Program-made: the position numbers and the translations under genes | The notes under the pieces: model-generated | The model's database searches: none | What the model was told of the DNA's origin: nothing | What the model saw: only the letters and a program-made list of their open reading frames with translations | Part shown: one piece after another, positions 34,991 through 36,213 of the stretch | Position numbering within the stretch: the first letter of the stretch is position 1 | Layout of the letters: each line of letters begins with the position of its first letter | Assembly: GCA_030265395.1 (NCBI GenBank) | Contig: JARFYF010000074.1 | Span: forward strand, 17,763,806-17,827,805 | Length of the DNA: 64,000 bases | Reading direction: 5' to 3' | Origin: Rhina ancylostomus | Lineage: Eukaryota

Positions 34991-36213
34991 TCAAGGTATA
35001 TCACACAAGGTAAGTTTGAAATGGGTCAAAGCAATGCCATGGTTTCAATTGCCTAAGATTACTGGAGGAGGAAAGACTCCCAGAGGTGAAACTTCTATTA
35101 ATGTTTGGGTGCAAGGATAAATTAGAATGGAATACATGGCAATAATTTCTTGCTTGACTGCAGCAAGGTTACAGTTATCAAATATAGCATTCTGACATAT
35201 TTACCACCAAGCAGAAACAATGGTTTAGATATTAAGAGGGATGAACTATGTGAGTGTAGTTTTGGATAAATGGACACAATAATTTGGGTAGGAGACTTGA
35301 AGCTAAGGCATTTCTAATTCCACAAATGAACATTTTTGTTATTGACAAACTCCCTGTTTGAAAGCAAGCCTGATTAACAATCTTGGCTTCCAGTCAAGCA
35401 TGAGGGAATCCACAATTGGTTTGATTCATGACCCTGTGAGGGGCTGTAATTTTAAGCCAGTATAATAGGATTAATTCTGATGAAGTAGAAAAGTGCCTTT
35501 GCAACACTCGTTGTAAGCCAAGTGAAGCAGGTGTGCCTCTAGCCAGTCCGCGTGTACCACTAACCTGCCATCTGCCATCAAGCACCAACTGACCACCTGA
35601 CCAATACATAGATCTCTGGAGTCCAGGATCAAATCTCCCTCAGAATTGGACCCAACCTTATGTTGAAGTTCCCGAAAGGTCAAACAAGCCACTTTCCCAC
35701 ACCACCACTTTCCTCCCCAGATCTGAGAATCAGACAACCACCCCCGGATCAGTTACAGCCCCTCACAGGGTCATGAATCAGACCAATTGTGGATTCCCTC
35801 ATGCTTGACTGGAAGCCAAGATTTTTAATCAGGCTTGCTTTCAAACAGGGAGTTTGTCAATAACCAAAATGTTCATTTGTGGAGTTGGGAATGTCTTGGC
35901 TTCAAGTCTCCTGCCCAAATTATTGTGTCCATTTATCCAAAACTACACTCATATAGTTCATTCCTCTTGATATCTAGACCATTGTTTCTGCTTTGTGGTA
36001 AATATGTCAGAATGCTATATTTGATAACTGTAACCTTGCTGCAGTCAAGCAAGAAATTATTGTCATGTATTCCATTCTAATTTATCCTTGCACCCAAACA
36101 TTAATAGAAGTTTCATCTTTGGGAGTCTTTCCTCCTCCAGTAATCTTGAGGCAATTTAAACCATGGCATTGCTTTGACCCATTCCCAAAATTACTTTGGG
36201 TGATATACCTCGA
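34991..36213. repeat. Long inverted repeat: arms 34991-35449 and 35753-36213, 303-bp spacer
   Basis: Hand alignment of the left arm to the reverse complement of the right arm gives ~25 differences (2 single-base indels) in ~460 bp. Confidence 0.97.

What the first reader, a model, noticed from the sequence alone, without database searches (positions are those of the whole stretch)
34991..36213. 460-bp intronic hairpin whose mismatches are almost all G-U wobbles on the TENM2 sense strand
Seen: two arms (34991-35449, 35753-36213) about 94-95% identical in inverted orientation around a 303-bp loop, ~5 kb downstream of the exon, with no TSD I can find. Folding the + strand by hand, the 17 transition differences split 15 G-U/U-G to 2 A-C, and both A-C pairs lie in the outermost ~35 bp. 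The inner ~420 bp have 14 wobbles, no A-C, four pyrimidine-pyrimidine mismatches and one bulge. A 50:50 null gives a two-sided binomial p of ~0.002. Known: G-U-biased long inverted repeats characterise hairpin RNAs (e.g. Drosophila hpRNA/endo-siRNA precursors), and long dsRNA is an ADAR/Dicer substrate. Inference: this may be a strand-specific structured RNA under selection in a cartilaginous fish. The alternative is transcription-associated mutation asymmetry (A>G excess on the sense strand), which acts in the same direction but is usually weaker; the small palindrome at 15681-15827 leans the same way (about 4:1), so this must be controlled for.
Basis: partly seen in the sequence, partly recalled or inferred. 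Interest (0 to 1): 0.8.

Follow-up and report, generated by a model that had tools for sequence, protein, structure and literature searches.

The report
Conserved wobble-rich intronic hairpin in teneurin
A single-copy 1.2-kb inverted duplication in a teneurin intron, also present in three related organisms, has arm mismatches that would nearly all still pair in the sense-strand RNA, so it is likely kept as a long double-stranded RNA, although no RNA from it has been seen.

Summary
In detail: 15 G-U to 2 A-C overall, and 14 to 0 in the inner 430 bp. Gene-wide mutation asymmetry does not explain it. Other inverted repeat pairs in 864 kb of sense-strand teneurin DNA are 50.5-53% G-T, and 0 of 288 comparable pairs reach 15/17. 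No second copy was found in the genome. Three related organisms, two of them 6-7% diverged in the flank, carry the same hairpin, and some changes sit in both arms, including a 5-nt indel. So the arms co-evolve while their sequence drifts. Best reading (0.5): arm-to-arm copying plus selection on a pre-mRNA duplex, a likely ADAR or Dicer substrate. Strand-biased DNA mutation or repair remains open (0.25). No RNA data were available, no target gene was found, and the relatives' mismatches could not be phased. The scan noted a similar single-copy wobble-biased repeat in another genome (e1-8043754).

The parts
29733..29993 (+). Teneurin intracellular-domain (Ten_N) exon; fixes + as the sense strand of the host gene
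   Evidence: next Ten_N exon at C74:17829335 (+), beyond the window end
34982..34986 (+). Left copy of a 5-bp direct repeat (TACTT), candidate target-site duplication
   Evidence: chance 1.8% for a symmetric 5-mer within 0-10 nt of two ends, 0.14% with complementary 2-nt termini as well (test framed after seeing it)
34987..35019 (+). Outer, decayed end of the left arm; holds both A-C and both purine-purine mismatches
   Evidence: non-wobble differences 5 of 30 (34991-35020) against 5 of 430 inside, p=1.7e-4
35020..35449 (+). Left arm, inner duplex: 14 G-U, 4 C-U, 1 bulge, no A-C
35450..35752 (+). 303-nt loop, unique sequence, present with the same fold-back joint in organisms D and E
35753..36217 (+). 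Right arm (reverse complement of the left arm), extended to the candidate element end
   Evidence: right flank joined to the arm end in organisms B, D and E
36218..36222 (+). Right copy of the 5-bp direct repeat
   Evidence: also read in the loose ends of B, D and E
36232..36237 (+). AATAAA hexamer 18 nt after the right arm; possible poly(A) signal, untested
   Evidence: the start of the motif is also in the loose ends of B, D and E; such hexamers are common in AT-rich DNA

Best explanation
This single-copy inverted duplication in a teneurin intron is older than the split of four related organisms, and its arms are likely kept able to pair as a ~430-bp duplex in the sense-strand pre-mRNA. Shown: the arms, the wobble bias, the absence of that bias in control repeats, the same hairpin in three relatives, and changes shared by both arms. 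Inferred, step 1: the unit arrived as one insertion or fold-back event, leaving a possible 5-bp target-site duplication. Inferred, step 2: occasional arm-to-arm copying (gene conversion or template switching) moves changes into both arms. Inferred, step 3: changes that break the RNA helix (A-C, purine-purine, like-with-like) are purged, while G-U wobbles, which break the DNA palindrome but not the RNA helix, persist. The duplex would be a nuclear ADAR substrate and possibly a Drosha/Dicer substrate. It most likely acts in cis on processing of the teneurin pre-mRNA, because no trans target was found.
For: Inner arm 14 G-U to 0 A-C against a 52% background, p=1.1e-4; all 18 inner substitutions are G-U or C-U. 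Controls on the sense strand: 7690:7531, 727:680 and 532:468 (overlapping, non-independent pairs); 0 of 288 pairs with 12-25 transitions reach 15/17; 39 close inverted repeats give 231:236. Strand-change joint at the loop end in A, D and E, and right flank joined to the arm end in B, D and E. D differs at 24 listed places in 339 nt of left flank. If the arms had drifted freely at 3.3-7.1%, 10-21 non-wobble mismatches would be expected against 4 seen (P 0.034 to 1e-5), while 5-10 wobbles would be expected against 14 seen. Both arms of D/E differ from both arms of A at 35102 and by a 5-nt indel at 35112. At 35054 the D and E arms carry G and A on left-arm coordinates, a G-U on + if the arm assignment by joined flank holds. 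Two wobbles could be polarised, one C>T (35313) and one A>G (35421), and 0 of 15 lie at a CpG, so no single deaminase or CpG decay accounts for them. Predicted helix runs are up to 161 and 128 bp on + and at most 68 bp on -. G-U as a strand signature of structured RNA: PMC1892782 (passages).
Against: No RNA evidence of any kind. Arm sequence is no better conserved than the flank: D middle arms 25 of 327 against 24 of 339, p=0.88; E inner arms 8 of 252 against 21 of 339, p=0.12. Arm-to-arm copying alone explains the low mismatch total, though not the spectrum. In unpaired flank and loop, the listed A-versus-D transitions also lean 18 of 22 towards G/T on A's + strand (p=0.004; all places 35 of 56, p=0.08), so a local strand-biased substitution process may exist. 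The few that could be polarised point the other way, 5 of 6 (p=0.22). D's arms assembled as separate contigs over 34991-35307, so they may be less alike than A's; only 40 of 96 difference rows were shown and D/E mismatches could not be phased. Four C-U mismatches are tolerated. Selection against one mismatch in a duplex of -770 kcal/mol is hard to picture. The locus was picked out of a very large scan for looking extreme.
Confidence: 0.5

Rival explanations
1. A DNA-level process with no RNA function. The sense strand folds back when single-stranded, during transcription or replication. Local one-strand damage (A>G, C>T, G>T on +) or mismatch-selective repair and conversion in the hairpin then leaves G-T and C-T and removes the rest.
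For: All 18 inner substitutions fit + strand changes A>G, C>T, G>T or A>C. Listed A-versus-D transitions in unpaired flank and loop lean 18 of 22 the same way. The both-arm 5-nt indel points to DNA copying between the arms. No sequence conservation over the flank.
Against: No such bias in 39 other close inverted repeats (231:236) or gene-wide, though those repeats are shorter or older and may not fold. Polarised terminal-branch transitions in unpaired DNA go 5 of 6 the opposite way (p=0.22). Mismatch repair is known to correct G-T efficiently (recalled), which does not predict G-T retention.
Confidence: 0.25
2. Chance plus ascertainment: an ordinary old inverted duplication kept similar by conversion, whose spectrum is a tail event picked out of tens of thousands of windows.
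For: Only 17 transitions. Long inverted repeats are abundant: 4,590,178 in 208 vertebrate genomes (PMC8728187, passages). The inner/outer boundary was chosen after looking.
Against: 18 of 18 inner substitutions being G-T or C-T has a nominal probability of 1.2e-7 under the background spectrum (post hoc). This was the only pair of its length and identity in 864 kb. One further G-U is seen in D/E.
Confidence: 0.13
3. The wobbles were inherited from the inserted element. An orphan long-terminal-inverted-repeat element, or a reverse-transcribed and edited RNA, already carried them, and the copy has since decayed slowly.
For: Symmetric 5-bp direct repeat with AG...CT termini in A. The tally of hidden rows for D (9 G>A, 6 T>C, by subtraction) is compatible with several wobbles being shared with D, but does not show it.
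Against: No second copy found (these searches give lower bounds). No Pfam match in six frames. No similarity to the genome's one protein-primed polymerase contig. Maverick end motifs and 6-bp TSD are not met (PMC8097293, passages). At least two wobbles arose after the split from D. 5 of 15 wobble G's have a 5' G, which ADAR disfavours (preference recalled). D and E have T rather than A at 34987.
Confidence: 0.12

Closest known systems
Hairpin RNA (hpRNA) / endo-siRNA loci of Drosophila (PMC10317233, passages)
   Same: Long genomic inverted repeat able to give one very long stem in a single transcript; lineage-restricted.
   Different: [quoted passage not shown] No third copy or coding homology was found here. 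This one lies in an intron of a large gene, and Dicer processing is untested.
Intronic inverted-repeat dsRNA edited by ADAR, such as inverted Alu pairs (PMC11263572, search listing and start of abstract only; rest recalled)
   Same: Close inverted pair on the sense strand of an intron, long enough for hyper-editing.
   Different: Arms are unique sequence, not copies of an abundant SINE. They are 95% alike and co-evolve across species, and their mismatches are wobble-biased; the repeat-derived pairs nearby are not.
Engineered G:U hpRNA of plants (PMC9263138, passages)
   Same: G-U changes disrupt the DNA inverted repeat and leave the RNA helix whole, which is the pattern seen here.
   Different: That is a designed plant transgene with 18-21% wobbles; here 14 of 430 pairs (3%) in a natural animal locus, with no function shown.
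Maverick/Polinton and other long-TIR DNA elements (PMC8097293, passages)
   Same: Long terminal inverted repeats, AG...CT ends in organism A, a short flanking direct repeat.
   Different: 5-bp, not 6-bp, duplication; no (AGT)2 or (AG)3 end motif; no coding remnant; no family in the genome.

Membership tests
hpRNA / endo-siRNA locus | Long inverted repeat that folds into one stem | tested here: met
hpRNA / endo-siRNA locus | Transcribed and diced into ~21-nt siRNAs | not testable with these tools
   only contigs of runs not on record as RNA were available
hpRNA / endo-siRNA locus | Complementarity to a target gene elsewhere in the genome | tested here: inconclusive
   no third locus and no Pfam match; the genome search finds close matches only
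ADAR-edited intronic dsRNA | Both arms in one intron on the sense strand, close together | tested here: met
ADAR-edited intronic dsRNA | Clustered A-to-I editing in RNA against matched DNA | not testable with these tools
   no raw RNA reads were available
Multi-copy foldback / MITE transposon | Dispersed copies in the genome | tested here: not met
   searches return only this locus (lower bounds); no match elsewhere in 864 kb at word size 8
Multi-copy foldback / MITE transposon | Target-site duplication | tested here: inconclusive
   5-bp symmetric repeat, chance 1.8% (0.14% with termini), post hoc
Maverick/Polinton | 6-bp TSD and (AGT)2//(ACT)2 or (AG)3//(CT)3 ends | tested here: not met
   ends AGTT...CCCT with a 5-bp repeat against PMC8097293
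Maverick/Polinton | Similarity to a polymerase-bearing element in the same genome | tested here: not met
   one PF03175 contig; best blastn E=2.5, tblastx E=0.65
Known Rfam RNA family | Covariance-model match at the gathering score | tested here: not met
   0 matches in the window

The most novel reading that the evidence does not exclude
A vertebrate keeps, by selection, a natural 430-bp near-perfect hairpin RNA of unique sequence, domesticated from an orphan insertion. It gathers G-U wobbles that defuse the DNA palindrome while the RNA helix stays whole, and it acts as an ADAR- or Dicer-dependent regulator of teneurin. It may be one of an unrecognised class that a genome-wide G-U:A-C strand test would reveal.
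Probability: 0.2. Interest if true: 0.8.

Novelty: new variant of a known kind. Interest (0 to 1): 0.5.

Why it matters
Long near-perfect self dsRNA is generally thought to be a liability in vertebrates (recalled: MDA5/PKR sensing, palindrome instability), and the intronic duplexes usually described are by-products of abundant repeats. A unique-sequence 430-bp stem whose pairing, not sequence, is kept across species would be a clean natural case of selection on dsRNA as such. If the cause is instead DNA-level, it would be a strong local strand-specific mutation or repair bias in fold-back DNA, which would be a confounder for using G-U bias as evidence of structured RNA. Phased orthologues and one stranded RNA-seq data set would tell the two apart.

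Tried and rejected
Gene-wide transcription-associated asymmetry: rejected, background 50.5-53% G-T. CpG decay: 0 of 15 wobbles at a CpG. ADAR edits fixed in the genome as the sole source: one polarised wobble is C>T, and 5 of 15 G's have a 5' G. Assembly artefact: self-run contigs and three other organisms hold the fold-back. Multi-copy transposon: only this locus found. Maverick origin: motifs not met, no similarity. Coding remnant: no Pfam match for 9 open stretches of arm and loop or six frames read through stops. Rfam: none. Sequencing runs: no RNA holder listed, which is no evidence either way. B's contigs do not cover the loop, also no evidence. I tried to phase D/E mismatches by subtracting shown rows from the tallies; it could not be resolved, since 56 of 96 rows were hidden. 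Position 34746 was left out of the polarised count because an indel overlaps it. Literature: searches showed no paper on this locus or on natural wobble-biased long intronic repeats in fishes; I saw listings and abstract starts only, and subscription journals are not covered. No supplements were read. Scan look-ups by place and by sequence returned nothing.

Full report
Observation. A local alignment of the two arms runs from 34991-35449 against 36213-35753, with a 303-nt loop and 94.6% identity over 461 columns. On the + strand the substitutions pair as 15 G-T/T-G, 2 A-C, 4 C-T/T-C and 2 A-G/G-A, with 2 bulges. From 35020 inwards there are 14 wobbles, 4 C-U, 1 bulge and nothing else. The outer 30 bp are decayed: non-wobble differences are 5 of 30 against 5 of 430 inside (p=1.7e-4). 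The + strand folds at -856.2 kcal/mol and the - strand at -837.5. Arm-only duplexes are -770 and -712, with helix runs up to 161 and 128 bp on + and at most 68 bp on -. A Ten_N exon ends 5.0 kb upstream and the next begins beyond the window, both on +, so the hairpin is intronic and + is the sense strand.

Is it more than background? I took 600 kb around the window and 200 kb of a paralogous teneurin gene, also transcribed on +, and counted mismatch types in all inverted repeat pairs. G-T:A-C was 7690:7531, 727:680 and 532:468; these pairs overlap and are not independent. Of 288 pairs with 12-25 transitions, 0 reached 15/17 and 0 reached 2/17. The 39 other close pairs (gap under 3 kb, arms of 40 bp or more) gave 231:236. 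Against the 52% background, p is 0.002 for 15 of 17 and 1.1e-4 for 14 of 14. Gene-wide transcription-associated asymmetry is therefore not the cause. Two caveats: the controls are mostly older and shorter repeats, and the locus was chosen for looking extreme.

What the sequence is. Genome searches with the arm, the loop, the outer 158 nt and a 27-nt end pattern with 3 mismatches returned only this locus (lower bounds). Positions 34000-37200 match nothing else in the 864 kb held. There is no Rfam match and no Pfam match in six frames. A 5-bp direct repeat, TACTT, lies 4 nt outside each stated arm end, giving a unit 34987-36217 with AG...CT termini. Random end pairs show such a repeat in 1.8% of trials, and in 0.14% with complementary termini; the test was framed after I saw the repeat. 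This suggests that the unit arrived as one insertion. It does not meet the Maverick definition of a 6-bp TSD with (AGT)2 or (AG)3 ends (PMC8097293, passages), and it does not resemble the genome's one protein-primed polymerase contig. Template switching is another known source of inverted repeats (PMC10710096, passages).

Relatives. Fourteen runs from six organisms hold part of the stretch. I laid four of them, as contigs, on the left flank, left arm and loop. Organisms A (self), D and E each have a contig that changes strand at the loop end. B, D and E have the right flank joined to the arm end. D differs from A at 24 listed places in 339 nt of left flank and E at 21, so the hairpin predates a 6-7% divergence. 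Both arms of D and E differ from both arms of A at 35102 and by a 5-nt indel at 35112. An indel in both arms is most simply arm-to-arm copying (inference). Arm sequence is not significantly better conserved than the flank (p=0.88 and 0.12). Wobbles that can be polarised: 35313 arose by C>T in the left arm, and 35421 by A>G in the right arm. The A-C at 34993 is specific to A and lies at the stem's end. At 35054 the D and E arms read G and A, a G-U on +. Only 40 of 96 difference rows were shown and contigs drop or merge variants, so the mismatch spectrum in D and E could not be phased. D's arms assembled separately over 34991-35307 and may be less alike than A's.

Reading the pattern. If the arms had drifted apart freely at the 3.3-7.1% seen in loop and flank, the inner 430 bp would hold 10-21 non-wobble mismatches and 5-10 wobbles. 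It holds 4 and 14. Copying between arms lowers the total, but if blind to mismatch type it would leave the background spectrum of about 32% G-T and 29% A-C. Something removes one class and spares the other on one strand. Selection on a sense-strand RNA helix does this naturally. G-U is the standard strand signature of structured RNA (PMC1892782, passages), and engineered G:U hairpins keep the RNA helix while breaking the DNA repeat (PMC9263138, passages). CpG decay (0 of 15 sites) and ADAR edits fixed in the genome as the sole source fit poorly.

Against this reading. The listed A-versus-D transitions in unpaired flank and loop also lean towards G/T on A's + strand, 18 of 22 (p=0.004; all places 35 of 56, p=0.08). 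These are unpolarised; the six that could be polarised go 5 to 1 the other way (p=0.22). A local strand-biased DNA process cannot be excluded. Four C-U mismatches are tolerated, and strong selection on single mismatches in so stable a duplex is not easy to picture. No RNA data were available, so transcription of the intron is inferred from the host gene, and folding, editing and dicing are predictions.

Comparison with known systems. It would work like an intronic ADAR-substrate duplex or an hpRNA precursor. Membership in the hpRNA class is not shown: siRNAs could not be tested, and no target was found, whereas Drosophila hpRNAs typically match and derive from target genes (PMC10317233, passages). 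It differs from repeat-derived intronic duplexes in being unique sequence with co-evolving arms. Long inverted repeats as such are common in vertebrates (PMC8728187, passages). My searches (listings only) showed no report of this locus. The scan's earlier notes include a similar unresolved case in another genome (e1-8043754), which I did not test and do not count as support.

Verdict. The feature is real, conserved in architecture, single-copy as far as tested, and a clear outlier against local controls. Selection on an RNA duplex with arm-to-arm copying 0.50; DNA-level strand bias 0.25; chance with ascertainment 0.13; wobbles inherited from the inserted element 0.12. New variant of a known kind; interest 0.5.

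Noticed in passing
G000:C15944:3080-4405 (L085): The genome's only PF03175 (protein-primed DNA polymerase) match, in a 1340-aa open frame on a 15.9-kb unplaced contig of 53% GC with no inverted ends. It may be a Maverick- or adintovirus-like element or a contaminant. PMC8097293 reported an apparent absence of Mavericks from chondrichthyans, possibly due to sampling.
   Followed up: partly
window 34705-34987 and 35466-35669: Differences between organism A and D in unpaired DNA beside the hairpin lean 18 of 22 towards G/T on A's + strand; unexplained.
   Followed up: partly
window 35046, 35208, 35337, 35378: All four inner transversion mismatches are C-T on the + strand; none is A-G, A-A, T-T, G-G or C-C. 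The one at 35046 is shared with organism B.
   Followed up: partly
window 15651-15857: 95-bp-arm palindrome, 80% complementary, made of a dispersed repeat that also matches 8317-8391 and 55294-55337; no real wobble bias (6:4).
   Followed up: yes
window 30765-30971, 31358-31456, 40366-40752, 41280-41341: Dispersed repeat copies in both orientations between the exon and the hairpin and beyond it; ordinary mismatch spectrum.
   Followed up: partly
window 39694-39969 and 52053-52481: Open stretches that read like C-terminal fragments of CR1-type LINE reverse transcriptase (resemblance recalled, not tested).
   Followed up: no
G000 C74, C104, C7, C112: Four teneurin paralogues carry Ten_N exons; the matching intron region fetched from C104 holds no comparable long hairpin and no similarity to this one.
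   Followed up: partly
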